From sequence record OQ031072: a stretch of 64,000 bases of DNA; one strand, 5' to 3'. The notes beneath the pieces are model-generated. The model saw only the letters and a program-made list of their open reading frames with translations, did no database searches and had not been told where the DNA came from. Source of the stretch: Shigella phage SFPB. The translations under genes were made by a program, and so were the position numbers. The number at the start of each line of letters is the position of its first letter. Within the stretch, counting starts at the first letter, position 1. Shown piece by piece: positions 53,609-64,000 of this stretch.

Positions 53609-53639
53609 TGTCTGCATGTTTAACAAAATAGGAGTGCAA

Positions 53640-54188
53640 ATGAAGAAATTTGTTTTAGGTTTGTGCTTATTCTTTACAGCACATTTAGCTACAGCGTCTG
53701 ACTGTCCAGAGCTTACAATCAGTCAGAAAGTTAATATGTTAAAAGCATATAACTATGGCGAAGGACAGATGGGAAAAGGTTGGGGAATCCCTTTAGCAGC
53801 TATAGCCTTACAAGAGTCACAATTAGGTGTCATGTTAGAAAATAAAAAGACTCATGATTATGGTGTTTTCCAAAATCACTTGAAGACTGTTGTAAAGCGT
53901 AACAAGGTATCTCCAAAGGTTGCTAAGAAGAAGCTAGTAAGTGACTTCCATTACTCAGCGAAAGAGGCTCATAAGGAGCTATTATTCTGGACTAAGGTTC
54001 ATGGTAACCCAGATGGAAAGTACTCTATGAAGCGTGTCCTAGCTTCTTATAATGCTGGTTACAAATACAAGATTCCAAAGGCTAGACAATACTCTCAAGA
54101 TGTGTACAATAACATGAAACTGCTGGCTCAATGTGAGTTTGCAACAAACATTAAAAAGGTAAAATATGAGCGAATCAAAACAATTTGA
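53640..54188 (+). CDS. secreted lytic transglycosylase-like (SLT domain) protein; candidate endolysin; start trimmed
   Basis: Signal peptide MKKFVLGLCLFFTAHLATA; SLT-like core AIALQESQLG...DYGVFQN. Confidence 0.55.
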   Translation: MKKFVLGLCLFFTAHLATASDCPELTISQKVNMLKAYNYGEGQMGKGWGIPLAAIALQESQLGVMLENKKTHDYGVFQNHLKTVVKRNKVSPKVAKKKLVSDFHYSAKEAHKELLFWTKVHGNPDGKYSMKRVLASYNAGYKYKIPKARQYSQDVYNNMKLLAQCEFATNIKKVKYERIKTI

Positions 54189-54872: not shown

Positions 54873-55337
54873 ATGCAAAACATTATTACAGTAGCTATCG
54901 ATGCTTCCGGTAACAAATCACAGGTAGTTCGTGAGATTATCAAAAGTAATTTCGATGGTAAAATCTTTCGTGCAGTAAACGTGAAAGCTGATGGTAACAT
55001 TCGTGAGTATCGTGCAATGTTGAATGTTACAAAACACGTTAAGGGTGTTGGTTCAACTACTGCTCATAAAGAAAATCTGATGACTATCTATGATATGGGT
55101 ATGGCTTCAGAGTTAGGTGCAAAAGGGATTGTACAATCTGGTGCTCCTTACCGTTCTTTCAATCTGGAAACTGCTCTTATGCTTTCCTTTACAAGTGGTT
55201 CTCAAACTACCACTTACCTCTTCACAGATACTGCAACGGTTTCTGCGATTAAGGACAATACCATTAAGGCTGGTGTAGCTGCTGCTTCAAAAGCCTCAAC
55301 AATGGCAGCAAATGTCCTTGCGAAAGTTCTTGGTTAA
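54873..55337 (+). CDS. hypothetical protein
   Basis: 154-aa ORF with SD. Confidence 0.45.
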   Translation: MQNIITVAIDASGNKSQVVREIIKSNFDGKIFRAVNVKADGNIREYRAMLNVTKHVKGVGSTTAHKENLMTIYDMGMASELGAKGIVQSGAPYRSFNLETALMLSFTSGSQTTTYLFTDTATVSAIKDNTIKAGVAAASKASTMAANVLAKVLG

Positions 55338-55348
55338 AGTTATTATAG

Positions 55349-55372
55349 AGGCTCCTTCGGGAGCCTTTTTCA
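55349..55372 (+). terminator. rho-independent terminator
   Basis: AGGCTCC ttcg GGAGCCT then TTTTT. Confidence 0.6.
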
Positions 55373-55389
55373 TTTCTAGGAGAAGTTAA

Positions 55390-55737
55390 ATGACGTTTAA
55401 AGAATTTTGTCAAGCAGCTTTTGTAATCATTTTCTTAACAGGTGTTGGTGCTTGGGGAGGTTACACTTACAAGACCAGCCAAGTTAATGAAAAGGAGCTA
55501 ACTAACCAGAGACTTGTAAGCGTTGCTAAAGATGCTTATCAAGAAGGTTTATCAAATCTTAGCTCCAATTACAAAAATGATTTGAAAGATGTGCTTGCTA
55601 AAAACAAACACACCAAAGAGGTATTGAACTATGAAAAAACTAAGACAGTCTTTATTAATGATTGTGCTACTGAGCCTTATGTCAGGGTGTTCAACGAACA
55701 AAGTGAGCAGTACCTTCAAAAACTCCCAAGTAAGTGA
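55390..55737 (+). CDS. inner-membrane spanin (Rz-like)
   Basis: N-terminal TM AAFVIIFLTGVGAWGG then coiled-coil periplasmic domain; contains overlapping lipoprotein gene. Confidence 0.5.
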   Translation: MTFKEFCQAAFVIIFLTGVGAWGGYTYKTSQVNEKELTNQRLVSVAKDAYQEGLSNLSSNYKNDLKDVLAKNKHTKEVLNYEKTKTVFINDCATEPYVRVFNEQSEQYLQKLPSK

Positions 55738-55897
55738 GAGTGACAAGTATACTCAAGAAGAAGCACGTTATGAGGTTAAAGGCACTAAAGGTGAAGACCT
55801 TGCAAGTGCTCTTGAGTTTTATCGTGATGGTTACTATGAATGTACTATTAAGGCAAACAATTTAATTGATATGATTTTGTTAGGGAATAAGCAGTAA
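55631..55897 (+). CDS. outer-membrane lipoprotein spanin (Rz1-like), overlapping the Rz-like gene in another frame
   Basis: Signal peptide with lipobox-like LMSGC; 88 aa; start lies inside 55390..55737. Confidence 0.5.
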   Translation: MKKLRQSLLMIVLLSLMSGCSTNKVSSTFKNSQVSESDKYTQEEARYEVKGTKGEDLASALEFYRDGYYECTIKANNLIDMILLGNKQ

Positions 55898-56166
55898 TGA
55901 CAGAGAAGAATGAAACATTTTTTGTGGAAGGTTATCTTCTGTTACCAAGACCAAGTAACACTTACATGAGATTTGACATTATGCCAACGGTTATGGATTA
56001 TGTAACTTGTCACATCTTTATGCAGGGTGTTTCTGCACAACTTAAACATGTTGGAAGAGATTGCAAAATACGTGTTGACAACCATCCTGAAATCAACGAG
56101 AATCACTACACATGGTTCGGGGAAGATTCTAAAGAAATCTATGCAGTCCTTAAAACAAGGAAGTGA
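55897..56166 (+). CDS. hypothetical protein
   Basis: TAATG-coupled, 89 aa. Confidence 0.4.
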   Translation: MTEKNETFFVEGYLLLPRPSNTYMRFDIMPTVMDYVTCHIFMQGVSAQLKHVGRDCKIRVDNHPEINENHYTWFGEDSKEIYAVLKTRK

Positions 56167-56175
56167 GGGTTAGTG

Positions 56176-56502
56176 ATGCAACTAGATGGTAAGAATTATG
56201 TAGCCGTCTTCTCAGACGGTGAAAAGGAAATTGGTACAGCACAAGTCTGTCACAGTGGTAAAGAGTTTCTCTATGGGGTTGTTGCATTCATTGGTACTCG
56301 TGGTGATATGAAATCTTTTAAAGATTGTGTTGACAAGCTTGAAGAATCCATAGAGAATCATTGGTGTCTGATATGGCTTAATGCAGAGAATGTTAAAGAA
56401 CGCTATGCAAAAGTTGGTATCCATATTGAAAGCATCGAACATGTTGACCTGTTTGAACTAACTGAAAAGGTGATGTATGAAAGCAATTCTGGTAAGAAGT
56501 AA
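56176..56502 (+). CDS. hypothetical protein; start trimmed
   Basis: 108-aa ORF. Confidence 0.4.
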   Translation: MQLDGKNYVAVFSDGEKEIGTAQVCHSGKEFLYGVVAFIGTRGDMKSFKDCVDKLEESIENHWCLIWLNAENVKERYAKVGIHIESIEHVDLFELTEKVMYESNSGKK

Positions 56503-56737
56503 AGTTACACGTCAAGTGTTAGCAGGGGCTATATTTGTTGGACGGGATGAGGTGATGCCATTTGGTTCACGAATCTATAAAGGTTCTGTACTATCACATA
56601 GCCACTTTAAGGCTGGTGATTTTTGTCACTATATTAACAGGGGCTATCTAAGAGAGGAACTCGGATATTGGAAGACCCGCATTAAGGAAAGATACGGTGA
56701 CAGAGTATTCTTACAAGAGGTAATCTCAAATGGCTGA
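56477..56737 (+). CDS. hypothetical protein
   Basis: 86-aa ORF. Confidence 0.4.
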   Translation: MKAILVRSKVTRQVLAGAIFVGRDEVMPFGSRIYKGSVLSHSHFKAGDFCHYINRGYLREELGYWKTRIKERYGDRVFLQEVISNG

Positions 56738-56930
56738 TTTCTGCACTAAGTGTTCTGTTGAGATGTTTGGAAAAGACACAGGGGACTTAAAAGGCCTCTT
56801 TACAAAAGCAGAGTTTGAAGCTGGTTCAGCAATGCCAGTAATCTGTGAAGGTTGTGGTGCTTTATGGGTAGACCATGAAGGTAACCGAGTTAAACCATCT
56901 GAAGATAACGAACGTTGGGAGCATTACTAA
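56730..56930 (+). CDS. small zinc-ribbon protein
   Basis: CTKCS...CEGCG pair. Confidence 0.4.
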   Translation: MADFCTKCSVEMFGKDTGDLKGLFTKAEFEAGSAMPVICEGCGALWVDHEGNRVKPSEDNERWEHY

Positions 56931-56931
56931 T

Positions 56932-57726
56932 ATGGGTATCGTAAAAATTATTAAAGGTGATATCTTTAAAGACTTTGATGGTAAGAAATTTGATATCATT
57001 GGTCACGGTTGCAACTGCATGAACTTGATGGGTGCAGGTATCGCAGCAACAATTGCCAAACGTTACCCAAAAGCTTATGAAACTGATGCTGAAGTTTATG
57101 CTACAGTAGGTGGTGAAAATCATAACCCTAAGCATCTAATGCTTGGTAACATCTCTGTAGCACGTTTTAAGCAGGGTCGAATTGCTAACCTTTACACTCA
57201 GGTTATCACTGGCAAAGATGCACGATACAACGCCTTAGAAGCAGCTTTACAGCGTCTTAACAACTACTGTAAAGTTAATCAACTTAAGAAAGTTGGACTT
57301 CCTATGATTGGTGCAGGGATTGGTGGTCTTGACAGCATGGCTGTGCTGTCTATCATCAATCAGACCATGAAAGATGTTGACGTTTATATGTATGTCTATG
57401 AAGATAAGATGTACAGTCAGTTGACTAGTCCGGTTACTGGTTGGGAAAACTTTAGTGAACCTCAATACTTTGATGGTGTTGCCGTGGTAGGCAAGGATAA
57501 AGTTACTCTCAAGGTGAAGCGTAATGGTAAGGTACACACCAGTTACCCTCCGGTTGATAAGTACAATCGAAGTAACGCTCAAGTTACCCACCCGTTACAA
57601 GGCCATTGTCACAGAGCCGTAACATTTGGTGATGATGCAAGTGTGTATATCGGTGCTGCTACAGAAGAGTTTGCAGAGGATTATATCACACATGAGAATG
57701 TTAACTATGTTGAAGCACGTAACTAA
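56932..57726 (+). CDS. macro-domain (ADP-ribose binding/processing) protein with C-terminal extension; start trimmed
   Basis: GDIF...FDIIGHGCNCMNLMGAGIAATIAK resembles the macro NAAN...GGGVAGAI signature; second Gly-rich loop LPMIGAGIGGLD. Confidence 0.5.
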   Translation: MGIVKIIKGDIFKDFDGKKFDIIGHGCNCMNLMGAGIAATIAKRYPKAYETDAEVYATVGGENHNPKHLMLGNISVARFKQGRIANLYTQVITGKDARYNALEAALQRLNNYCKVNQLKKVGLPMIGAGIGGLDSMAVLSIINQTMKDVDVYMYVYEDKMYSQLTSPVTGWENFSEPQYFDGVAVVGKDKVTLKVKRNGKVHTSYPPVDKYNRSNAQVTHPLQGHCHRAVTFGDDASVYIGAATEEFAEDYITHENVNYVEARN

Positions 57727-57751
57727 TAAGTTACCTAAATAGACATAGACA

Positions 57752-57799
57752 AGCCCTCCAAAGTTTGAGTTTAAAATCTCAGGTAAGGAGGGCTTTTTC
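57752..57799 (+). terminator. terminator-like hairpin (8-bp stem AGCCCTCC/GGAGGGCT, large loop) with U-tract
   Basis: stem arms 57752-57759 and 57787-57794, TTTTT 57795-57799. Confidence 0.45.
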
Positions 57800-57979
57800 A
57801 TTTCAAATTTGTGCAGGTGCAATTGCATAGAACTCTGGACAGATTTCTTTAGCTGAACTCCAAAGGGAAAATTCATTTTCAATTTGTGCAGGTCTAGACT
57901 CCAAAGAGCTTTTTCATTTTCAATCTGTGCAGATGCAGTTGGACTCCAAAGGGAAAATTCATTTTCAATTTGTGCAGGT
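57795..57979 (+). repeat. tandem direct repeats (iterons), 3 full copies plus 1 partial, unit ~40-45 bp, core TTCATTTTCAAT(T/C)TGTGCAG(G/A)T
   Basis: Copies at 57855-57893, 57896-57934, 57941-57979 (first and third near-identical), partial at 57795-57818. Confidence 0.8.
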
Positions 57980-58152
57980 AGGTAGCTATAGGAAGCCAGC
58001 CCCACCATCCCCTCTTACTCCCCTTCCTCCCAAAAGTCAAGAGAAAAATTTGTAGAGAACTAAAAAATAATTCTTGACTAGTTTTCTGTTTTCTGTTAGT
58101 TGCGTACACGCGTTTCATTCACAACATGCCAAAAATATTTTTAAAAATTTTG

Positions 58153-58238
58153 TTGACTCTATGAATCCAGTTTTGTAGTATTTGCATCAACGGGGCAAGA
58201 TAAAGCCCCAACAATCCTAAACTGGAGAATCTAGAATG
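58153..58238 (+). promoter_or_regulatory. early-promoter cassette, variant B: TTGACT-17-TAGTAT, 5'UTR hairpin GGGGC-N8-GCCCC, CCTAAACTGGAGA RBS
   Basis: -35 58153-58158, -10 58176-58181, hairpin 58191-58208, ATG 58236. Confidence 0.6.
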
Positions 58239-58442
58239 TTATATCAACGGGAATTAATGATTGTAGACAATAACAAAACTAAAAAACGTCGCTTCTTTAT
58301 GTTAATCTGTGACGTGTGGCAAAGAATATCTGAAAAGGATTATGACAAGTATGTTGATACATCAATCAGGTCGGATTGTTATTTGACAAATCACACAAGA
58401 CAGTTTACAAGACATACAGCAGTTTACTACTATGACGTTTAA
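58236..58442 (+). CDS. hypothetical small protein
   Basis: 68 aa; canonical cassette spacing. Confidence 0.5.
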   Translation: MLYQRELMIVDNNKTKKRRFFMLICDVWQRISEKDYDKYVDTSIRSDCYLTNHTRQFTRHTAVYYYDV

Positions 58443-58453
58443 AGGGCTTGACA

Positions 58454-58615
58454 ATGATTAAAGAAGGCAATGTAATAAGCTACAAAGATTTAGACGGATA
58501 CCCAAAAATTGGGAAAGTTTTCTACCTTTACAAGTCAGTGATGGATAATGACTGCATAGCCCTAACAAATGGCGACAAGATAACCATGAAAGATTTTATA
58601 AAAATTATTTCATAA
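58454..58615 (+). CDS. hypothetical small protein (53 aa), not in ORF track
   Basis: SD AAAGGG 8 nt upstream; stop abuts next cassette. Confidence 0.35.
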   Translation: MIKEGNVISYKDLDGYPKIGKVFYLYKSVMDNDCIALTNGDKITMKDFIKIIS

Positions 58616-58707
58616 AGTGCTTTACATGGGGTTTAAAAAGGTAGTATCTTAAGCCCCAGATAAAGAGCTTTACCACTAAACAATCCTAAACTGGAGATTC
58701 TAAAATG
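58616..58707 (+). promoter_or_regulatory. early-promoter cassette, variant A: AAGTGCTTTACA(-35) ... TAGTAT, hairpin GGGGTTTAA-N12-TTAAGCCCC, CCTAAACTGGAGA RBS
   Basis: repeat family member; ATG 58705. Confidence 0.6.
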
Positions 58708-59088
58708 AAAAAATATTATATGCCAAAATTCATCAAGAAAGAAAACTTTCGTGATGCTCTGGAAAAATACATGAATGAGCAGTTCAAAGGTAAATTAATT
58801 GTTGTCCACGCATACAATTTTAAGTATGATGTAAATGGAAACAAGACAAATCACTATACCGCTACGATGCTGGATGGTACACTCTCAGGTGAAAAAGCCA
58901 TTATCAATGCACTGGCTGGACGTGGTAAAACGTTGATACGTTGTGATAAACGCCGATATCAGGGCAGTTCTTATGGTTATGAGGATGCAGTCTATCACCT
59001 TGATAACATGGGTTACAATGTCGAAAAAGCTGGCGTGTCTCAAATGATTGGTAGTGATGGATATGTGACAATTTTTAAAATTAACTAA
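58705..59088 (+). CDS. hypothetical protein
   Basis: 127 aa, cassette-driven. Confidence 0.5.
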   Translation: MKKYYMPKFIKKENFRDALEKYMNEQFKGKLIVVHAYNFKYDVNGNKTNHYTATMLDGTLSGEKAIINALAGRGKTLIRCDKRRYQGSSYGYEDAVYHLDNMGYNVEKAGVSQMIGSDGYVTIFKIN

Positions 59089-59090
59089 TA

Positions 59091-59178
59091 AAGTGCTTTA
59101 CATGGGGTTTATAGTTCAATAAGATAAGCCCCAGATAAAGAACTTTATTACTAACCTAAACTGGAGATTCAAAAAATG
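59091..59178 (+). promoter_or_regulatory. early-promoter cassette, variant A
   Basis: AAGTGCTTTACA-17-TAAGAT, hairpin, CCTAAACTGGAGA; ATG 59176. Confidence 0.6.
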
Positions 59179-59433
59179 GCTACCATTAAAAACATCGTAA
59201 TTACTGCAAAATCCCGTGATGATGCTCGTGCAACTGCTAAAAAATTAAATGGTAAAGTGGTTGACAACGGAAAAGATTCTACTGTAAGATGGGGCGTAAA
59301 GACAGACAAAAAATTAACTCTTAAACATAGCTCTTACAATATGTTTAAAGGTGTAAAAACTATCGGTAACACTAACGTGTTTACAAAACAGGGTTACAAA
59401 ATGCACTTAGCATTAATTGGCAATTTAATCTAA
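59176..59433 (+). CDS. hypothetical small basic protein
   Basis: 85 aa. Confidence 0.5.
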   Translation: MATIKNIVITAKSRDDARATAKKLNGKVVDNGKDSTVRWGVKTDKKLTLKHSSYNMFKGVKTIGNTNVFTKQGYKMHLALIGNLI

Positions 59434-59522
59434 AAGTACTTTACATGGGGTTTATAAGTCGATAGTATAAGCCCCAGATAAAGAGCTTTACCAACAATCC
59501 TAAACTGGAGATTCAAAAAATG
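59434..59522 (+). promoter_or_regulatory. early-promoter cassette, variant A
   Basis: AAGTACTTTACA-17-TAGTAT, hairpin GGGGTTTATA/TATAAGCCCC, RBS; ATG 59520. Confidence 0.6.
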
Positions 59523-60032
59523 AAATCAGTCGAAAGCACCTTTGAAGTTCAAAAAGAAAAATTTACTATCATCTTTGAAGCAATGAATGTTTATGAGCCT
59601 TCCCATTGTGTGGATAACTGGCAATTCACTGATGAGCATAAAGGAGGAGTTACAATCAAAGTTAAAAACTCAGAACGTAACGGCTACAAATATGCAATTC
59701 CTATGCACTATGCGCTTTCACAGCTTGCCAGTGATTACGCAAAACAGGGAAGGGATAACCCATCATTAGCCGCTTACAAGAGCTTACAAGATGAACTAGA
59801 AAGGGATTTAGGGGCTAATAGCTACATTCTATACGCCTCAGTAGTTGACGCTGAAGGCAACACGGTTTTAAATAGTTTTTCCCTTGCGTATGGTTTTGAT
59901 TGGTGCTATCTTGACGGGGAAGATTTAGATTCACGCTTAAAAGAGGAAGTAAGCAATTCAGGTGCTGAAGAGGAAGTTTTAGAGCGCTTGGAAGATTTAA
60001 AAGATAGTGTGATGAATATCTTTAATATCTAA
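59520..60032 (+). CDS. hypothetical protein
   Basis: 170 aa. Confidence 0.5.
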   Translation: MKSVESTFEVQKEKFTIIFEAMNVYEPSHCVDNWQFTDEHKGGVTIKVKNSERNGYKYAIPMHYALSQLASDYAKQGRDNPSLAAYKSLQDELERDLGANSYILYASVVDAEGNTVLNSFSLAYGFDWCYLDGEDLDSRLKEEVSNSGAEEEVLERLEDLKDSVMNIFNI

Positions 60033-60120
60033 AAGTACTTTACATGGGGGTTATCAAGTTGCTAAGATAGCCCCAGATAAAGAGCTTTACCAACAATCCT
60101 AAACTGGAGAATCTAAAATG
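60033..60120 (+). promoter_or_regulatory. early-promoter cassette, variant A
   Basis: AAGTACTTTACA-18-TAAGAT, hairpin, RBS; ATG 60118. Confidence 0.6.
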
Positions 60121-60408
60121 AAAATTCCTGCTAATGTACGCTCAAAGTTAAGCCAATTACTACAAAACATTTCTTTTGTAGAATCTCATAGACGTTCACA
60201 GGATGTTATAGAGTGGTATCATGGGAAGATTAACAAGAAAGAAGTTTTAATCTGTATTTGGAACTTTCAAAAAGAACATGGCAAGCCATTGCTTCAGGTT
60301 GACATTTATGATAATACTAGCAAATCAGCAGTAAAATCAAAAGCTGATATGATTGATTCATATGAAATTAGTCACACTGGTAGATTATCACACGTTGGGA
60401 AGGTTTAA
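60118..60408 (+). CDS. hypothetical protein
   Basis: 96 aa. Confidence 0.5.
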   Translation: MKIPANVRSKLSQLLQNISFVESHRRSQDVIEWYHGKINKKEVLICIWNFQKEHGKPLLQVDIYDNTSKSAVKSKADMIDSYEISHTGRLSHVGKV

Positions 60409-60409
60409 A

Positions 60410-60736
60410 ATGTTACTTTCTGGTATCGCAATTCTGATTTCAATTGTGGCGCTATGTAAAGCTTATCAAGCCTCAGCATATGCAGATAAGGCCATCACAA
60501 GGAAAGTTAAAATAAACCTTGTAAGTAGCTTCTTAGAGCGTTTAAGCGTGGAACAATTACAACGTTTAGAGATGGGCTTCAGGTTTAAGGCAGACACTTA
60601 TCAAATCAGTGATGTTTTATCCGGTAACTTTGAGCTTGTTAATGATTACAATACGTTACTAAATGCTATTCAAGCTACTGATTTAAAAGAATATTATCCG
60701 GCTATTGCACAAGAAATTAATAAACGCAAAAAATAG
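60410..60736 (+). CDS. small membrane protein; start trimmed
   Basis: N-terminal TM LLSGIAILISIVALC; in frame with track ORF 60353..60736. Confidence 0.45.
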   Translation: MLLSGIAILISIVALCKAYQASAYADKAITRKVKINLVSSFLERLSVEQLQRLEMGFRFKADTYQISDVLSGNFELVNDYNTLLNAIQATDLKEYYPAIAQEINKRKK

Positions 60737-60737
60737 C

Positions 60738-60822
60738 TTGCAAAGGCAAATCAAAACAAGTAAAGTACTCATCAACGGGGCAAGCAAGCCCCCAACAATC
60801 CTAAACTGGAGAATCTAAGATG
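60738..60822 (+). promoter_or_regulatory. early-promoter cassette, variant B (TTGCAA-17-TAAAGT, hairpin GGGGCAAGCAAGCCCCC, RBS)
   Basis: -35 60738-60743, -10 60761-60766; ATG 60820. Confidence 0.6.
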
Positions 60823-61092
60823 TATACAACTAATAATGGCAGAACTTTAAATGTAACTTTAAAGCACTATGTAGATGGTGTATTAAACTTTGAAGACTTG
60901 CAAGCAGAACAGCACTTGTTAGCTTGGCAAGTAGCAGGATTACAAAAAACCGCCACCGGATATGGGAAGAAAATCCCTACATCTTGGAAAGTTCGATACC
61001 TTGGAAAGTTACGCAGAATTTATCAAGATGTTTACAGTAATAGTGGTGTAAGTTACATTATTGTTAGTGGTAAAAAGTTACATCTTGCTTAA
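60820..61092 (+). CDS. hypothetical protein
   Basis: 90 aa. Confidence 0.5.
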   Translation: MYTTNNGRTLNVTLKHYVDGVLNFEDLQAEQHLLAWQVAGLQKTATGYGKKIPTSWKVRYLGKLRRIYQDVYSNSGVSYIIVSGKKLHLA

Positions 61093-61094
61093 TA

Positions 61095-61182
61095 AAGTGC
61101 TTTACATGGGGTTTATAAGTCGATAGTATAAGCCCCAGATAAAGAACTTTATCACTAACCTAAACTGGAGATTCAAAAAATG
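61095..61182 (+). promoter_or_regulatory. early-promoter cassette, variant A (near-identical to copy at 59434)
   Basis: AAGTGCTTTACATGGGGTTTATAAGTCGATAGTATAAGCCCCAGATAAAGAAC...; ATG 61180. Confidence 0.6.
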
Positions 61183-61581
61183 GCTACGAACAAAGATATA
61201 GCAGTACTGAAAGCACGTTTGACCGTTAACCGTATTAATGCTATCACATCAACCGCACCAGATGAGGTTTTACATAACATTATCGGTAAAATTCAGGGTG
61301 TAATTTTAGACGTTGAAAACATCAGAAATTCACTTGCAAATGTTGCACAGGGTGTTACACTTGACGGCGCACAATATGAAATGGCTGATATGCTTTCAAA
61401 GTCAAAAGTTCTTAATAAAGAATTAGACTTGAAAATGTTTCGATTTGCTGTTAAAGTGTGGTTATCTGTTGAGTTTGATGCTAACTTTGCAATTGCTGAT
61501 TTCTTTGCAACGTGGTTACAACGTAATTTAGAAAAGCAAGATTTTCAAGATATCTGCGATACAATTTACGCAGAACTTTAA
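61180..61581 (+). CDS. hypothetical protein
   Basis: 133 aa. Confidence 0.5.
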   Translation: MATNKDIAVLKARLTVNRINAITSTAPDEVLHNIIGKIQGVILDVENIRNSLANVAQGVTLDGAQYEMADMLSKSKVLNKELDLKMFRFAVKVWLSVEFDANFAIADFFATWLQRNLEKQDFQDICDTIYAEL

Positions 61582-61588
61582 AAAACGT

Positions 61589-61675
61589 TTGACACTAATT
61601 TTTAGATAGATTAAAGTACTCATCAACGGGGCAAGACAGAAGCCCCAACAATCCTAAACTGGAGATTCAAAAATG
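61589..61675 (+). promoter_or_regulatory. early-promoter cassette, variant B (TTGACA-17-TAAAGT, hairpin, RBS)
   Basis: -35 61589-61594, -10 61612-61617; canonical ATG 61673. Confidence 0.6.
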
Positions 61676-61677
61676 AA

Positions 61678-62229
61678 ATGCTTTCACGGAACTACTCAAG
61701 AAAATTTTGTAAACCTGCTGAGTGGTGGAGAAAACCTTCAGGGGCTTGGAATTGCTCAGACAGTGACGGGTGTTTTTATGTTTACCCTGTTAGTAAGTTC
61801 TATGATGTAGAGGATATGGACGCAGAACAAATCACTGAAGAGGGTATTAGAAACGCTCTGGATAGCGCAAGTATCACAGCGGCTTTCCAGATGAAATCAC
61901 AAAAAATCGTTATCTTGGAACTTGATATTCCAGAAGATGAATTACAAGATGACTGGAGCTGTGAGAACATGAGCGATGTTGCAAGCTTTACAGAATACTT
62001 TGATAGGGCTTGGATTAAAAAGATTTACACAACTGAATTTAATGCTATGTATGCACCGTTTTTTGTACCTAACTTGAACAATAGAAATCTGGGCTATGTA
62101 CCTGATGAATTACATAACATTGCTGTAATGATTCAACGTAGCGATGAGATGAATAACGTGTTTTGTGATTTGTGCGACAACTTGCAATCTAACATAACAG
62201 AAAGCACTGTAAGCGACGTTTTAGCGTAA
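61678..62229 (+). CDS. hypothetical protein; start ambiguous (61678 in-frame ATG, or cassette-canonical ATG 61673 in the +1-offset frame joined at T5 run 61774-61778)
   Basis: 183-aa ORF from 61678; alternative 45-codon ORF from 61673 ends at 61810. Confidence 0.45.
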   Translation: MLSRNYSRKFCKPAEWWRKPSGAWNCSDSDGCFYVYPVSKFYDVEDMDAEQITEEGIRNALDSASITAAFQMKSQKIVILELDIPEDELQDDWSCENMSDVASFTEYFDRAWIKKIYTTEFNAMYAPFFVPNLNNRNLGYVPDELHNIAVMIQRSDEMNNVFCDLCDNLQSNITESTVSDVLA

Positions 62230-62292
62230 ACCATACAATCACACTAACAACATTCAAAAGCCCTGTATAGGGGCTTACAAGGGGTTTAAATC

Positions 62293-62529
62293 ATGTTAAC
62301 GACTATCTATCTCATGCTTGCCGTTTGCTCTGGTGCAAATAATTGTCATTATGGCATTATGGAATCTTTCGAAGGCACTAAACAAAATGCAGTAGAGGCT
62401 TGCAATATTGCTAGACAGGACTACCCGAAATCGTCTATAATGGGCTGTTATGTCTTACAAGGTGAAGACGAAAGCACAGAATACTACGAAAACGTTAATG
62501 AAGATGAGTTTTTAGAGATTTACAAATAA
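62293..62529 (+). CDS. small secreted/lipoprotein-like Cys-containing protein
   Basis: Hydrophobic N-terminus MLTTIYLMLAVCSG; 78 aa. Confidence 0.45.
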   Translation: MLTTIYLMLAVCSGANNCHYGIMESFEGTKQNAVEACNIARQDYPKSSIMGCYVLQGEDESTEYYENVNEDEFLEIYK

Positions 62530-62606
62530 AGTACTTTACATGGGGCTTTAAACCTTGCTACTATAAGCCCCAGATAAAGAGCTTTCCTAAACTGGAGATT
62601 CAAATG
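62529..62606 (+). promoter_or_regulatory. early-promoter cassette, variant A (shortened 3' part)
   Basis: AAGTACTTTACA-18-TACTAT, hairpin, CCTAAACTGGAGA; ATG 62604. Confidence 0.55.
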
Positions 62607-62753
62607 ATGACGCATACTATTGAGACAGTTTTTAACAACCCTGTATTCTCAGAGATGATTTTCTCATTTATCATGATGTTACTAGTAAAAATCATGAAAA
62701 AAGCAGAAAAACTACATTTAAAGAAAAAATCTATTGTAAACCGTATTAAGTAA
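62604..62753 (+). CDS. small membrane protein (49 aa), not in ORF track
   Basis: cassette-driven; hydrophobic core FSFIMMLLV then basic tail. Confidence 0.4.
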   Translation: MMTHTIETVFNNPVFSEMIFSFIMMLLVKIMKKAEKLHLKKKSIVNRIK

Positions 62754-62800
62754 AGTTACAGTATCTATCAAGCCCACTTCCTAAACTGGAGAATCTGAAA

Positions 62801-63142
62801 ATGGCACATGTAACCATAATTACTGATAAAGAAAATTCATCTTGGTCTACAAAAGTAAGTGATAAAGTGTCGCCTTTACAGTGCCTAAAATACTTTGAGC
62901 AATGGAATCGCGGCGAGGATGTTAGCCCGTTTCATGTGATGCGTATAGTTCACACTGACAAAGAAGGGAATAAAACAACCTTAAACAGTGAATACTATGC
63001 AACACGATTTGAAACAAAAGTTAACACAATGAAAATATTACGTGAATCCGGCTATGGTCACATTGCCGCTTTAATCTGGAGTGATTTACTCAAAGACCAA
63101 AAAATGACCTATGTCAAGACAGAAAAAATCTTTATAAGCTAA
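62801..63142 (+). CDS. hypothetical protein
   Basis: 113 aa; preceded by CTTCCTAAACTGGAGAATC RBS module. Confidence 0.5.
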   Translation: MAHVTIITDKENSSWSTKVSDKVSPLQCLKYFEQWNRGEDVSPFHVMRIVHTDKEGNKTTLNSEYYATRFETKVNTMKILRESGYGHIAALIWSDLLKDQKMTYVKTEKIFIS

Positions 63143-63269
63143 TCAATGACTTACAAAATTCTTTGAAAAAACTGTTGACAATACCCCTTGACATTGATAG
63201 ATTTGTTCGAGGGGTTTATCTAAAAGGGATTCACTTAAAAGATTCTTTATAGATAAGCGTAAAAAGTAC

Positions 63270-63340
63270 TTGCAAAGGTCTAATCATATCTATATAGTAT
63301 CTTCAAAAGGCAACTTCCTAAACTGGAGAATCACTAAATG
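63270..63340 (+). promoter_or_regulatory. early promoter TTGCAA-17-TATAGT plus CCTAAACTGGAGA RBS module (no hairpin)
   Basis: -35 63270-63275, -10 63293-63298; ATG 63338. Confidence 0.5.
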
Positions 63341-63478
63341 TTAGATATCATTAAAAACCCTATCCTTTGCGGTATGATTGTCTCTGTTGTGTTGCCATTA
63401 GCAATACTCATCATTGGTGAAATCTCAGATAAACTTTTTGATAAAAAACTACTTGCAATACAGAATCAAAACAAGTAA
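63338..63478 (+). CDS. small membrane protein (46 aa), not in ORF track
   Basis: Hydrophobic segment ILCGMIVSVVLPLAILIIG; 3' end overlaps next cassette promoter. Confidence 0.4.
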   Translation: MLDIIKNPILCGMIVSVVLPLAILIIGEISDKLFDKKLLAIQNQNK

Positions 63479-63545
63479 AGTATTTATCAACGGGGAGGAG
63501 ACTTCCCCACTAAAACAAAATTCCTAAACTGGAGAATCTAGAATG
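63453..63545 (+). promoter_or_regulatory. early-promoter cassette, variant B (TTGCAA-17-TAAAGT, hairpin GGGGAGGAGACTTCCCC, RBS)
   Basis: -35 63453-63458; ATG 63543. Confidence 0.6.
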
Positions 63546-64000
63546 AATAAGTTCCAAGCAATTAATCATATCCGTTCCAATGCAGTAATGAGCAAGCCAG
63601 TAAAAGACACCTTCGAATTTCGCTGTAATGACAAGTTGTTTGCAGTCATTACGAAAGGGGAAGATAAAAAGTATTATGTACATCGCCAAAACGTTAAGGC
63701 GGTAACAGCAGATAACTTTATGCAAGCTGTTGCAAAAATTCTACCGGATTTTATGGAACTGGTAGCAGAACTTTGTGAACACTGCATCAAGTCATCAAAG
63801 GCAGAATTAAACCGCTTTAAAATGGCTTATGAGCGTTCTATCAAGTCTCATAACATGTATATCATGCCATTGGCTTTTGGTACTCAGGCAATGGGAACAG
63901 GTTGTCATCCTTGCCACCTTTACGATGTAGAAAGCATTTACCTTAGTGAGACAAAAGATATTGATTTTAGTTTACAGTTAGGACAAGCATTAAACGATAT
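63543..64000 (+). CDS. hypothetical protein, 3' end beyond window
   Basis: ORF open from cassette-positioned ATG to window end. Confidence 0.5.
   Translation, partial: MNKFQAINHIRSNAVMSKPVKDTFEFRCNDKLFAVITKGEDKKYYVHRQNVKAVTADNFMQAVAKILPDFMELVAELCEHCIKSSKAELNRFKMAYERSIKSHNMYIMPLAFGTQAMGTGCHPCHLYDVESIYLSETKDIDFSLQLGQALND

What the first reader, a model, noticed from the sequence alone, without database searches (positions are those of the whole stretch)
58153..63545. Reiterated ~85-90 bp promoter + 5'UTR hairpin + RBS cassettes in front of about 11 small genes
Seen: at least 11 copies of a module ending in the invariant CCTAAACTGGAGA(A/T)TC-N3-5-ATG, in two upstream variants. Variant A is AAGTRCTTTACA(-35)-N17/18-TA(G/A)(T/G)AT with a GGGGYTTA...TAAGCCCC hairpin overlapping the -10. 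Variant B is TTGACA/TTGCAA-17-TAAAGT followed by CATCAACGGGG-N-CCCC. Copies start at 58153, 58616, 59091, 59434, 60033, 60738, 61095, 61589, 62529, 63270 and 63453; those at 59434 and 61095 are near-identical over ~85 nt. Established: T4-type phages carry repeated promoter-early stem-loop cassettes thought to drive modular gene shuffling. Inference: this is a host-RNAP early-gene array built by cassette-mediated recombination, and the invariant GGAG context could also be an endoribonuclease site.
Basis: partly seen in the sequence, partly recalled or inferred. Interest (0 to 1): 0.75.

Follow-up and report, generated by a model that had tools for sequence, protein, structure and literature searches.

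The report
Repeated promoter–hairpin–RBS cassettes, Felix O1-like phage
A Felix O1-type phage puts nearly the same ~90-base control module (host-type promoter, RNA hairpin, fixed ribosome-binding block) in front of twelve small genes of unknown function, and comparison with relatives shows these modules are the points where genes are gained, lost, moved and overwritten – the same design already known from T4-type phages, here in a different phage subfamily.

Summary
The window is a Felix O1-like myovirus (Ounavirinae).

Every copy has a σ70-type promoter upstream (−35, 17–18 nt spacer, −10 TAnnnT). Six are variant A, four are variant B and two have no hairpin.

- **Variant A:** it is larger than described, a ~57–65-nt hairpin that encloses the promoter. 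It is 90.6% paired across 62 distinct copies from 13 genomes and shows compensatory changes.
- **Variant B:** a short hairpin sits just after the predicted start site, with at least six different but always complementary stems.
- **Conservation:** the design persists in an Erwinia phage with ~42% protein identity.

Indel junctions among 12 genomes fall on cassette sequence. One gene occupies three different slots. The window's cassette at 61095 is a chimera of two others.

This works like the PeSL cassettes of T4-type phages. The repeats themselves were already published without this interpretation: Felix O1 "direct repeats" (2010) and a Mordin "SAS-like" repeat (2015). Promoter activity, the hairpin's role and the reason for the invariant RBS block remain untested. 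I found no support for the endoribonuclease idea.

The parts
58153..58238 (+). Cassette 1, variant B. -35 TTGACT 58153-58158; -10 TAGTAT 58176-58181; hairpin GGGGC/GCCCC 58192-58209; RBS block 58216-58231; ATG 58236 (68-aa gene).
58613..58707 (+). Cassette 2, variant A. Stop TAA 58613-58615; -35 TTTACA 58621-58626; -10 TATCTT 58645-58650; extended hairpin 58613-58672; RBS block 58685-58700; ATG 58705 (127-aa gene).
59086..59178 (+). Cassette 3, variant A. -35 59097-59102; -10 TAAGAT 59120-59125; extended hairpin 59086-59150 (-26.8 kcal/mol, z -5.7); RBS block 59155-59170; ATG 59176 (85-aa gene).
59431..59522 (+). Cassette 4, variant A. -35 59440-59445; -10 TAGTAT 59463-59468; hairpin 59433-59489; RBS block 59499-59514; ATG 59520 (170-aa gene).
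60030..60120 (+). Cassette 5, variant A (TTAT-type inner stem, with one extra G). -35 60039-60044; -10 TAAGAT 60063-60068; hairpin 60032-60088; RBS block 60098-60113; ATG 60118 (96-aa gene, followed by a coupled 108-aa gene that has no cassette).
60738..60822 (+). Cassette 6, variant B. -35 TTGCAA 60738-60743; -10 TAAAGT 60761-60766; hairpin 60777-60792; RBS block 60800-60815; ATG 60820 (90-aa gene).
61090..61182 (+). Cassette 7, variant A and chimeric. The loop is identical to cassette 4; the flanks and first 3 codons match cassette 3. -35 61101-61106; -10 61124-61129; hairpin 61092-61152; RBS block 61159-61174; ATG 61180 (133-aa gene).
61589..61675 (+). Cassette 8, variant B. -35 TTGACA 61589-61594; -10 TAAAGT 61612-61617; hairpin 61628-61646; RBS block 61653-61668; ATG 61673 (gene of 185 aa in relatives, frameshifted here).
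62527..62606 (+). Cassette 9, variant A with no linker between hairpin and RBS block. -35 62535-62540; -10 TACTAT 62559-62564; hairpin 62529-62584; RBS block 62586-62601; ATG 62604 (49-aa gene).
62734..62803 (+).
63270..63340 (+). Cassette 11, no hairpin. -35 TTGCAA 63270-63275; -10 TATAGT 63293-63298; RBS block 63317-63332; ATG 63338 (46-aa gene).
63453..63545 (+). Cassette 12, variant B. -35 TTGCAA 63453-63458 inside the end of the 46-aa ORF; -10 TAAAGT 63476-63481; hairpin GGGGAGG/CTTCCCC 63492-63508; RBS block 63523-63538; ATG 63543 (gene of ~175 aa, cut by the window end).
58236..64000 (+). The array itself: 16 small genes (46-185 aa), all on the + strand, all of unknown function. It corresponds to Felix O1 genes 14-23 and continues past the window end.

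Best explanation
The twelve modules are composite regulatory cassettes of the PeSL type, in a Felix O1-like phage.

Each cassette fills the whole gap between two small accessory genes and has three parts:
1. A promoter read by the host sigma70 RNA polymerase. It has an A-rich upstream stretch, a -35 (TTTACA, TTGACA or TTGCAA), a 17-18 nt spacer and a -10 (TAnnnT).
2. A G/C-clamped stem-loop that acts in the sense RNA.
3. A fixed ribosome-binding block, CCTAAACTGGAGAWTC, followed by an A-rich spacer and the ATG.

In variant A the hairpin encloses the promoter, with the -35 in the 5' arm and the -10 in the loop and 3' arm. It can therefore fold only in RNA that arrives from an upstream promoter. 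There it most likely attenuates read-through, or marks a processing or 3'-stabilising site. The cassette's own promoter then restarts transcription with a short unstructured leader.

In variant B the hairpin begins about 2-4 nt after the predicted start site. It would form a 5'-terminal stem-loop of the kind known to protect E. coli mRNAs from decay.

Because the cassettes are near-identical, they also serve as sites of homologous recombination. Crossovers in the RBS block, the hairpin or the -35 region delete, insert, relocate or overwrite 'one ORF plus one cassette' units. Each rearranged gene keeps a promoter and an RBS.

Shown here: the repeats, conservation of the promoter positions, base-pair conservation with compensatory changes, and cassette-located indel junctions and chimeras.

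Inferred: promoter activity and start sites, what the hairpins do, and why the RBS block is invariant.
For: Repeat significance:
- 12 copies against 0.12 expected. The cassettes are confined to the array.

Promoter:
- All 12 copies have -35 / 17-18 nt / TAnnnT.
- In 62 distinct variant A copies from 13 genomes, the only invariant loop columns are T, A and the final T of the -10. The other loop positions vary.
- All 60 variant B copies listed show an A-tract, a -35, a 17-nt spacer and a TAnnnT.
- Felix O1 RT-PCR: ORFs 16, 20, 21 and 22 of the orthologous array peak at 5 min; ORFs 14, 17, 19 and 23 peak at 25 min.

Hairpin:
- Variant A, 21 pairs: 90.6% of cells are paired against at most 56.5% when partners are slid.
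- The covariation score is 0.084 against 0.042 in shuffles (0 of 500 reach it).
- Compensatory changes: G-C 42 / U-A 13 at one outer pair, and G-C 58 / U-A 4 at an inner pair (the four U-A are in the Erwinia phage).
- U-G is conserved at two pairs, which fits sense-strand RNA rather than DNA.
- Fold energies are -23 to -27 kcal/mol with z -3.2 to -5.7.
- Variant B has at least six different stem sequences, all complementary.

Deep conservation:
- The same layout occurs in Erwinia phage phiEa21-4, where the linked protein is ~42% identical.

Recombination:
- 70% of 772 alignment-break edges lie in cassette intervals that cover ~20% of the array.
- 61 of 70 pure indels have flanking alignments that overlap, nearly always on cassette sequence: 17-37 bp of RBS block, 74-110 bp of cassette, or the -35 region.
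- These represent about 15-18 independent gene-family events.
- Family 18 sits in three different slots.
- Window cassette 61095 is a mosaic of cassettes 59434 and 59091, while KMM4 and ESh22 carry another type at that position.

Layout and gene content:
- The layout matches published PeSLs.
- All array genes are of unknown function.
Against: - No transcription start, terminator or processing site has been mapped in any Ounavirinae phage in the literature I could search.
- The generic promoter scan is only modestly above shuffles for the region as a whole (38 against 23.3). The promoter case therefore rests on positional conservation.
- Felix O1 RT-PCR timing is mixed. Two variant A-led genes peak at 5 min, but ORF17, also variant A-led, peaks at 25 min.
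- Variant A hairpins lack a downstream U-tract and were not called as intrinsic terminators, so 'terminator' in the PeSL sense is doubtful here.
- The copies are related by descent and gene conversion, so the number of independent compensatory events is small. The shuffle control overstates significance (see the caveats).
- Intergenic DNA in the array is almost entirely cassette. Selection for intact genes alone would therefore enrich breakpoints there; only the homology overlaps and the chimeras argue for recombination between cassettes as such.
Confidence: 0.75

Rival explanations
1. The invariant RBS block is chiefly a recognition site for a trans-acting factor. This could be a phage or host protein or RNA acting as a translational repressor or activator, or an endoribonuclease of the T4 RegB kind that cuts at GGAG. 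Such a factor would switch the whole array on or off together. This mirrors the role proposed, but never shown, for the start-associated sequences (SAS) of cluster K mycobacteriophages. It could hold alongside the main explanation.
For: - 13-16 nt are at least 88% conserved over 154 copies in 12 genomes.
- Only GGAG can pair with the 16S rRNA 3' end (my own comparison with the known E. coli anti-SD sequence). The same argument was made for SAS.
- The block is array-specific.
- Each lineage has its own version: CCTAAACTGGAGA, CTTAAACTAGGAGA, or CCTTAnAAAGGAATC in the Erwinia phage.
- A weak 3-bp hairpin, UCC-UAAACU-GGA, that occludes the SD is predicted in most copies.
- The Mordin authors made the SAS comparison themselves.
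Against: - No candidate factor was identified.
- The protein that relatives annotate as 'endoribonuclease' (53616-54188) has no RegB Pfam hit and no PDB match, only a sub-threshold lysozyme-like SLT hit.
- Lineage-specific versions are equally expected from concerted evolution by gene conversion.
- The block is itself the commonest crossover site.
- The mini-hairpin is marginal in energy.
Confidence: 0.25
2. The variant A hairpin is an RNase III processing site, like the sites between the early genes of phage T7. Long read-through transcripts would be cut in the ~22-bp interrupted stem into monocistronic mRNAs. Each upstream message would keep a protective 3' hairpin. This is a specific version of the hairpin's role in the main explanation.
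For: - The stem has about 20-22 pairs and a conserved 2x2 internal loop (CA/AG).
- It sits exactly between cistrons and starts at the stop codon.
- It shows RNA-type G-U pairs and compensatory changes.
- There is no U-tract that would make it an intrinsic terminator.
- T7 early mRNA processing by RNase III at interrupted hairpins is established knowledge.
Against: - Nothing tests cleavage, and there is no sequence similarity to T7 R-sites.
- No Rfam family matched.
- Variant B and the hairpin-less cassettes do without it.
Confidence: 0.3
3. The inverted repeats of variant A are two half-sites for a dimeric DNA-binding regulator that brackets the promoter. This was suggested for the ESAS inverted repeats of cluster K mycobacteriophages. 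On this view they are not an RNA structure.
For: - The arms AAAGTGCTTTA / TAAAGAGCTTT flank the promoter and are conserved even in the Erwinia phage.
- Conservation of AGATAAAGAGCTTT is stronger than a stem alone would need.
- The ESAS precedent.
Against: - Compensatory changes occur site by site within one genome. Both AAAGTG...GAGCTTT and AAATTG...GAGATTT occur in KMM4, for example. A single protein specificity would not require this.
- T-G (U-G) is conserved at two pairs; on the other strand this would be a C-A mismatch.
- The inner G/C stem varies in sequence and register but stays paired.
Confidence: 0.08
4. The similarity is only a remnant of recent tandem duplication of one gene-plus-leader unit, with no present function for the repeated parts.
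For: The copies are very similar, lie in one orientation and are clustered.
Against: - The genes behind the cassettes are unrelated to one another and fall into different PHROG families.
- The cassettes are conserved across genera whose proteins are 42-70% identical.
- Within the cassette, functional positions (-35, TAnnnT, paired bases, GGAG block) are conserved while loops and linkers vary.
Confidence: 0.02

Closest known systems
PeSL (promoter-early stem-loop) cassettes of T4-type phages (RB49/phi1, T4/PST, KVP40/nt-1): Arbiol et al. 2010, PMC2839356; Comeau et al. 2014, PMC4122927
   Same: - The conserved module is ~90-100 bp and runs from the upstream stop codon in A/T-rich DNA to the next ATG.
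- It has a sigma70-type -35/-10, a G/C-rich stem-loop between -35 and -10 or over the -10 (with G-T pairs), and an SD.
- It is clustered in a variable region in front of small genes of unknown function.
- Indels and replacements between relatives have junctions inside the modules, including within the loop.
   Different: - The phage subfamily is different (Ounavirinae) and the cassette sequences are unrelated.
- The RBS part is a near-invariant 16-26-nt block and is the commonest crossover point.
- Variant A adds an outer stem, so the whole promoter lies inside the hairpin.
- There is a second class with the hairpin after the start site.
- No U-tract is present.
- Promoter and terminator activity and mini-circles, which were shown experimentally for PeSLs, are untested here.
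Start-associated sequences (SAS) and extended SAS (ESAS) of cluster K mycobacteriophages (Pope et al. 2011, PMC3203893). The comparison was already made for this very repeat in phage Mordin (PMC4611695).
   Same: - A short asymmetric repeat contains the SD core and lies 3-7 nt before ATG starts.
- It has one orientation and occurs only in the non-structural part of the genome.
- It precedes genes with unusually long upstream gaps.
- Conservation goes beyond what 16S pairing explains.
- About half the copies are preceded by an inverted repeat with a variable spacer.
- Different lineages have different consensus versions.
   Different: - The consensus sequence (GGGATAGGAGCCC) and the host phylum differ.
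- ESAS departures do not support RNA pairing, and its authors favoured DNA-binding sites; here compensatory changes support pairing.
- SAS were not tied to sigma70-type promoters or to recombination junctions.
The Felix O1 'direct repeats' (Whichard et al. 2010, PMC3185647)
   Same: These are the same elements. The 57-bp repeat CTTTACATGGGGCTTAAAAGTCTGTAAAGTAAGCCCCAGATAAAGAGCTTTACCACT is variant A. The 39-bp repeat TTGACACTGGTTTTTAGATAGATTAAATTACACATCAAC is the promoter part of variant B. They lie between genes 15/16, 19/20, 18/19 and 20/21.
   Different: They were reported only as repeats. They were not listed among that paper's promoters or terminators, and no structure, RBS block or recombination role was noted.
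Early-gene regions of T7 (RNase III sites between early cistrons) and the host-takeover module of Bacillus phage SPO1 (my recollection of the literature, not checked here)
   Same: A block of small early genes close to one genome end is served by strong host-type promoters and strong RBSs, with hairpins between cistrons.
   Different: There is no sequence relationship. The T7 sites are not promoters. Neither system is described as a set of near-identical cassettes that act as recombination points.

Membership tests
PeSL-type composite cassette | Sigma70-type early promoter (-35, ~17 nt spacer, -10) with an A/T-rich stretch upstream that holds the stop codon of the preceding gene | tested here: met
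   All 12 window copies meet this. The T, A and final T of the -10 are the only invariant loop columns in 62 distinct copies. All 60 variant B copies listed have an A-tract and a 17-nt spacer. Stop codons abut the cassette.
PeSL-type composite cassette | Stable stem-loop, rich in G then C, between -35 and -10 or overlapping the -10 | tested here: met
   Variant A: GGGG...CCCC encloses the spacer and -10; 90.6% of cells are paired with compensatory changes; -23 to -27 kcal/mol. Variant B places the stem after the -10. Two cassettes have none.
PeSL-type composite cassette | Shine-Dalgarno sequence and start codon at the 3' end of the module | tested here: met
   GGAG lies 7-10 nt before the ATG in all 12 copies.
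PeSL-type composite cassette | Clustered in a hyperplastic region in front of genes without known function | tested here: met
   All array proteins are Pfam-negative and fall in PHROG families of unknown function. Gene content differs among 12 genomes.
PeSL-type composite cassette | Insertions, deletions and replacements between related phages have their junctions within the cassettes | tested here: met
   61 of 70 pure indels have flanking alignments that overlap, nearly all on cassette sequence. 70% of edges fall in the ~20% of the array that is cassette. A chimeric cassette is present in the window.
PeSL-type composite cassette | Measured promoter activity and terminator/attenuator activity of the stem-loop | not testable with these tools
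   This needs reporter fusions or RNA end mapping. No U-tract follows the stems.
PeSL-type composite cassette | Circular excision products (mini-circles) formed by recombination between neighbouring cassettes | not testable with these tools
   This needs inverse PCR on infected cells or virion DNA.
PeSL-type composite cassette | Occurs in T4-type myoviruses | tested here: not met
   The window is Ounavirinae, with nearest relatives in Mooglevirus. The claim is therefore 'works like a PeSL' and not membership of the T4-phage set.
SAS / ESAS of cluster K mycobacteriophages | Asymmetric repeat holding the SD core, 3-7 nt before start codons, one orientation, non-structural genome half, long upstream gaps | tested here: met
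   definition.
SAS / ESAS of cluster K mycobacteriophages | Consensus 5'-GGGATAGGAGCCC | tested here: not met
   The consensus here is CCTAAACTGGAGAWTC.
SAS / ESAS of cluster K mycobacteriophages | Upstream 17-bp imperfect inverted repeats whose departures do not support RNA pairing | tested here: not met
   Inverted repeats are present, but their departures are compensatory.
T4 middle promoter (MotA box) | (a/t)(a/t)TGCTT(t/c)A box centred near -30, 11-13 bp upstream of a TAnnnT -10 (from established T4 literature) | tested here: not met
   TGCTTTA occurs in AAAGTGCTTTACA, but it ends 19 nt before the -10. Its G is freely replaced by A, T or C among copies.
T4 RegB-type endoribonuclease target | A RegB-like nuclease encoded by the phage, and cleavage at GGAG in early mRNA leaders | tested here: inconclusive
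   The only protein that relatives annotate as 'endoribonuclease' has no RegB Pfam or PDB match. Other window proteins were not screened, and cleavage is not testable here.
Rfam RNA families | Match to any curated covariance model | tested here: not met
   No match at E <= 1 in 55000-64000.

The most novel reading that the evidence does not exclude
The 'ORF plus cassette' units form a true gene-cassette system for phage accessory genes, a recombination-based counterpart of integron cassettes. The invariant 16-26-nt RBS block would act as the common joint. Units would be excised as circles and re-inserted at any other block, within a genome and between co-infecting Ounavirinae. The same block would also be the operator for one trans-acting factor that controls translation or decay of the whole early array.
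Probability: 0.15. Interest if true: 0.7.

Novelty: new member of a known kind. Interest (0 to 1): 0.45.

Why it matters
Felix O1-like phages are widely used for Salmonella typing and biocontrol, and for E. coli, Citrobacter and Erwinia control. The Felix O1 genome paper itself states that their transcriptional programme is not understood.

- **Testable map of the array:** reading these repeats as promoter/hairpin/RBS cassettes predicts 12 or more early promoters with start sites, explaining how about 16 small genes are expressed despite having no other signals.
- **Why gene content varies:** it explains why this block differs most between otherwise collinear genomes. This matters when judging the safety and host-takeover functions of therapeutic phages.
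- **Generality of the PeSL principle:** regulatory cassettes doubling as recombination joints now appear beyond T4-type phages, and the finding connects to the unexplained SAS/ESAS elements of mycobacteriophages.
- **Practical use:** the cassettes are ready-made, insulated expression units and natural insertion points for engineering these phages.

Tried and rejected
- **Rfam:** a scan of 55000-64000 at E <= 1 found nothing.
- **Generic terminator scan:** no + strand intrinsic terminators at the hairpins, so I dropped the classical terminator reading.
- **RegB-like endoribonuclease:** the homologue of the gene annotated 'endoribonuclease' in phage mistaenkt (window 53616-54188) has no RegB Pfam domain. 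It has only a sub-threshold SLT (lysozyme-like) hit and no PDB relative. Other relatives annotate it as lysin or lysozyme-like.
- **MotA box:** TGCTTTA lies inside the variant A -35 region, but the spacing is wrong (19 nt, not 11-13) and the G is variable. Rejected.
- **Extended 16S pairing of the RBS block:** only GGAG is complementary to the anti-SD sequence (my own inspection).
- **The AAACTGGAGA hit at 1994:** it lies inside a coding region and has no cassette features.
- **Literature:** I found no paper linking PeSLs to Felix O1-like phages and no transcriptome or start-site data. Two searches with loose term settings returned only irrelevant papers. The phiEa21-4 genome paper (PMC2663227) is not held, so I could not check whether it describes these cassettes. 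The rV5 paper was irrelevant.
- **First breakpoint metric:** 'both edges inside a fixed cassette interval' was too strict (24 of 70) because my intervals were approximate. I used the junction-overlap sequences instead.
- **MAFFT alignment A1:** the TTAT-type inner stems are one column out of register beyond the sixth inner pair. Pairs 25-43 and 27-42 are therefore undercounted.

Full report
**What the window is.** The region matches Felix O1-like myoviruses (subfamily Ounavirinae). The best matches are Citrobacter phage BSwM KMM4 (95.5% identity) and Shigella phage ESh22 (92.6%), both Mooglevirus. About 250 further records are from Escherichia, Salmonella, Shigella and Citrobacter phages.

The array follows rIIA/rIIB, a polynucleotide kinase, spanins and a macro-domain 'phosphatase' gene (56875-57726, Pfam Macro), and then a terminator. 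It corresponds to Felix O1 genes 14-23. In relatives it ends with a terminator facing a convergent minus-strand cluster. In phage HP1 it ends about 470 bp before the annotated terminal repeat.

**The observation.** CCTAAACTGGAGAWTC occurs 12 times, all on the + strand, against 0.12 expected; no shuffle reached 12. Each copy lies 2-5 nt before an ATG that opens a small ORF.

The upstream parts are also repeated. CTTTACATGGGG occurs six times and ATCAACGGGG four times, and neither occurs elsewhere in the window apart from chance-level one-mismatch hits. The single other AAACTGGAGA, at 1994, is intragenic.

**Promoters.** Every one of the 12 copies has a -35-like hexamer (TTTACA, TTGACA, TTGCAA, TTGACT or TTGTAA). 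A 17-18 nt spacer and a TAnnnT hexamer follow, 17-41 nt upstream of the RBS block. A bare consensus scan is not decisive, since the region has 38 promoter-like sites against 23 expected. The case rests on comparative evidence.

- I collected 73 variant A copies (62 distinct) from the window and 12 relatives. These span Mooglevirus, Suspvirus, Felixounavirus and the Erwinia phage phiEa21-4.
- In their alignment the hairpin loop is variable except for three invariant columns.
- Those columns are the T, the A and the final T of the -10. They are the positions that matter most for sigma70 (established knowledge).
- The -35 region CTTTACA is nearly invariant.
- In the 60 variant B copies from 12 genomes listed, an A-tract precedes the -35, the spacer is 17 nt, and the -10 is again TAnnnT.
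- The only experimental data are semi-quantitative RT-PCR in Felix O1. ORFs 16, 20, 21 and 22 peak at 5 min; ORFs 14, 17, 19 and 23 peak at 25 min. This is compatible with early-to-middle host-polymerase transcription but does not map any start site.

**Hairpins.** The inverted repeat extends from the upstream stop codon (TAAAGTGCTTTACATGGGGTTTA...) to ...TAAGCCCCAGATAAAGAGCTTT. The -35 therefore lies in the 5' arm, and the -10 lies in the loop and 3' arm.

- Over the 62 distinct copies, the 21 pairs I specified are 90.6% paired, against 30-57% when the partners are slid by 1-3 columns. The covariation score is 0.084 against 0.042 in shuffles (0 of 500 reach it).
- One outer pair is G-C in 42 copies, U-A in 13 and G-U in 3. 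One inner pair is G-C in 58 copies and U-A in the four Erwinia-phage copies (GGTG.../...CACC).
- Two pairs are mostly U-G. That is acceptable in sense-strand RNA but would be a C-A mismatch on the other strand.
- Both outer-stem versions occur within single genomes. This argues for base pairing rather than a protein half-site.
- The six window copies fold as RNA into the same structure, at -23.2 to -26.8 kcal/mol with z -3.2 to -5.7.
- Because the 5' arm lies upstream of the predicted start, this hairpin can form only in RNA that reads through from an upstream promoter.
- No U-tract follows it, and it was not called as an intrinsic terminator.

Variant B has a 4-8-bp stem that starts about 10 nt after the -10, which is 2-4 nt after the expected start. 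At least six different stem sequences occur: GGGGC/GCCCC, GGGC/GCCC, GGGGAGGG/CCTTCCCC, GGGA/TCCC, GGGAGG/CCTCCC and GGGGAG/CTCCCC. All stay complementary. A 5'-terminal stem-loop with a very short single-stranded leader is a known mRNA stabiliser in E. coli (established knowledge); that function is inferred here. Two window cassettes (62734-62803 and 63270-63340) have a promoter-like site and an RBS block but no hairpin.

Caveat: the copies are related by descent and gene conversion, so independent compensatory events are few and the shuffle control is generous (see the notes).

**The RBS block.** Over 154 copies in 12 genomes, positions -8 to +7 around GGAG are at least 88% conserved, apart from the A/T position. 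An A-rich spacer follows. Only GGAG is complementary to the 16S rRNA 3' end (my inspection), so the remaining conservation needs another explanation.

Lineages have their own versions. Mooglevirus and Suspvirus have CCTAAACTGGAGA. Felixounavirus has a mixture with CTTAAACTAGGAGA. The Erwinia phage has CCTTAnAAAGGAATC. RNAfold places a weak 3-bp hairpin (UCC-UAAACU-GGA) over the first Gs of the SD in most copies; I treat this as a lead only.

In IMG/VR, clustered multi-copy matches occur almost only in 84-94 kb contigs, the genome size of this phage group. A 73-kb contig and a 54-kb contig also carry four copies each and may be fragments.

**Recombination.** I compared the arrays of 12 genomes pairwise with chained blastn.

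- Of 772 alignment-break edges, 70% fall in cassette intervals that cover about 20% of the array.
- The sequence at the junctions is more telling. In 61 of 70 pure indels, the two flanking alignments overlap in the genome that lacks the insert.
- The overlap is nearly always cassette sequence. It is 17-37 bp of RBS block (for example CAATCCTAAACTGGAGATTCAAAAATG), 74-110 bp of cassette, or the -35 region.
- Grouped by inserted gene family, these amount to roughly 15-18 independent events.

The gene map shows four families present in all 12 genomes and at least eight that come and go, each as one ORF plus one cassette. The 65-aa family 18 occupies three different slots in ESh22, EcSzw-2 and Sf13, and each time an A cassette follows it.

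The window itself holds a fresh example. The cassette at 61095 has the loop of cassette 59434, and the flanks and first three codons of cassette 59091. The orthologous position in KMM4 and ESh22 carries a different cassette type. That is intragenomic gene conversion.

A caveat remains: nearly all intergenic DNA here is cassette, so selection for intact genes also favours such junctions. The homology overlaps and the chimeras are what point to recombination between cassettes.

**Comparison with what is known.** The layout matches the PeSL cassettes of T4-type phages feature by feature. Shared features are:

- a stop codon in A/T-rich DNA;
- a sigma70 promoter;
- a G/C stem-loop between or over the promoter boxes, with G-T pairs;
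- an SD and ATG;
- location in a variable region of unknown-function genes;
- crossover points inside the module, including the loop.

The experimentally shown PeSL properties (promoter and terminator activity, mini-circles) are untested here, and the host phage is not T4-type. The supported claim is therefore 'works like a PeSL'.

The repeats themselves are not new observations. The Felix O1 genome paper lists a 57-bp repeat and a 39-bp repeat that are variant A and the promoter part of variant B. It offers no interpretation and does not count them among its promoters. The Mordin genome announcement reports the 26-bp repeat CCAACAATCCTAAACTGGAGAATCTA before 8 genes as 'reminiscent of SASs', with the role unknown.

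SAS/ESAS of cluster K mycobacteriophages share the position, asymmetry, genome distribution and an upstream inverted repeat. They differ in sequence, and their ESAS departures do not support RNA pairing.

I found no paper that joins these pieces or links PeSLs to Felix O1-like phages. I could not read the phiEa21-4 genome paper.

**The endoribonuclease idea.** Phage mistaenkt annotates the gene after rIIB as 'endoribonuclease'. Its window homologue (53616-54188) has no RegB Pfam domain, only a sub-threshold SLT hit, belongs to PHROG 600 of unknown function, and has no PDB relative. Other relatives call it lysin or lysozyme-like. I did not screen the rest of the genome, so the idea is unsupported rather than excluded.

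**Verdict.**
- The feature is real and far beyond chance.
- Three corrections apply. There are 12 copies, not 11. The variant A hairpin encloses the promoter and acts on read-through RNA. The elements had been partly reported before.
- It is a new member of a known kind. A specialist would find it a useful but unsurprising extension of PeSL biology.
- The invariant RBS block is the part that remains truly unexplained.

Noticed in passing
window 57797-57977 (copies at 57797, 57872, 57913, 57958): Four direct repeats of about 20 bp (TTCATTTTCAATTTGTGCAG, within 41-45-bp units) lie between the terminator after the macro-domain gene and the first cassette. Number, order and spacing (~73-77, ~39-41, 45 bp) are kept in all 12 enterobacterial relatives. 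Three copies (TTCATTTTCAATTTGTGCAT) are present in Erwinia phage phiEa21-4. They look like iterons or regulator-binding sites; the function is unknown. Relatives annotate short ORFs across them on either strand.
   Followed up: partly
window 61673-62229 (about 61730): The gene led by cassette 8 is 185 aa in relatives. Here a 1-nt shorter A-run (GGAGAAAAACC in ESh22, GGAGAAAACC here) shifts the frame after about 20 codons, so the ATG frame ends after 45 aa. KMM4 also has a shortened version (132 aa). This is either a homopolymer sequencing error or real inactivation of an accessory gene.
   Followed up: partly
window 57753-57802: A terminator-like hairpin, GCCCTCC...GGAGGGC, is followed by TTTTTCATTT. 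It is the counterpart of Felix O1 terminator t13 and separates the macro-domain gene from the array.
   Followed up: partly
window 57998-58032: A pyrimidine-rich tract (CCCCACCATCCCCTCTTACTCCCCTTCCTCCC) lies between the direct repeats and the first promoter. It is unusual for a genome of about 39% G+C.
   Followed up: no
window 53616-54188: This 190-aa protein is annotated 'endoribonuclease' in some relatives and 'lysin' or 'lysozyme-like' in others. It shows only a sub-threshold SLT transglycosylase hit, belongs to PHROG 600 (unknown function) and has no PDB relative. The endoribonuclease label looks unfounded.
   Followed up: partly
window 62254-62292: The 78-aa gene at 62293 has no cassette. 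Before it lies a small hairpin (AGCCCTGTATAGGGGCT), which the scan calls terminator-like only on the minus strand, and its own SD (AAGGGG). In relatives it always travels with the 185-aa gene as a two-gene unit.
   Followed up: no
window 59520-60032: The 170-aa array protein has homologues (38-42% identity over ~70% of its length) in unrelated large Salmonella myoviruses (PVP-SE1 and relatives) and in an Aeromonas phage. At least some array genes are therefore shared across phage groups.
   Followed up: no
window 58613-58631 and the other variant A -35 regions: AAAGTGCTTTACA contains TGCTTTA, the core of the T4 MotA-box consensus. The spacing to the -10 (19 nt) and the variability of the G argue that this is coincidental.
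   Followed up: yes
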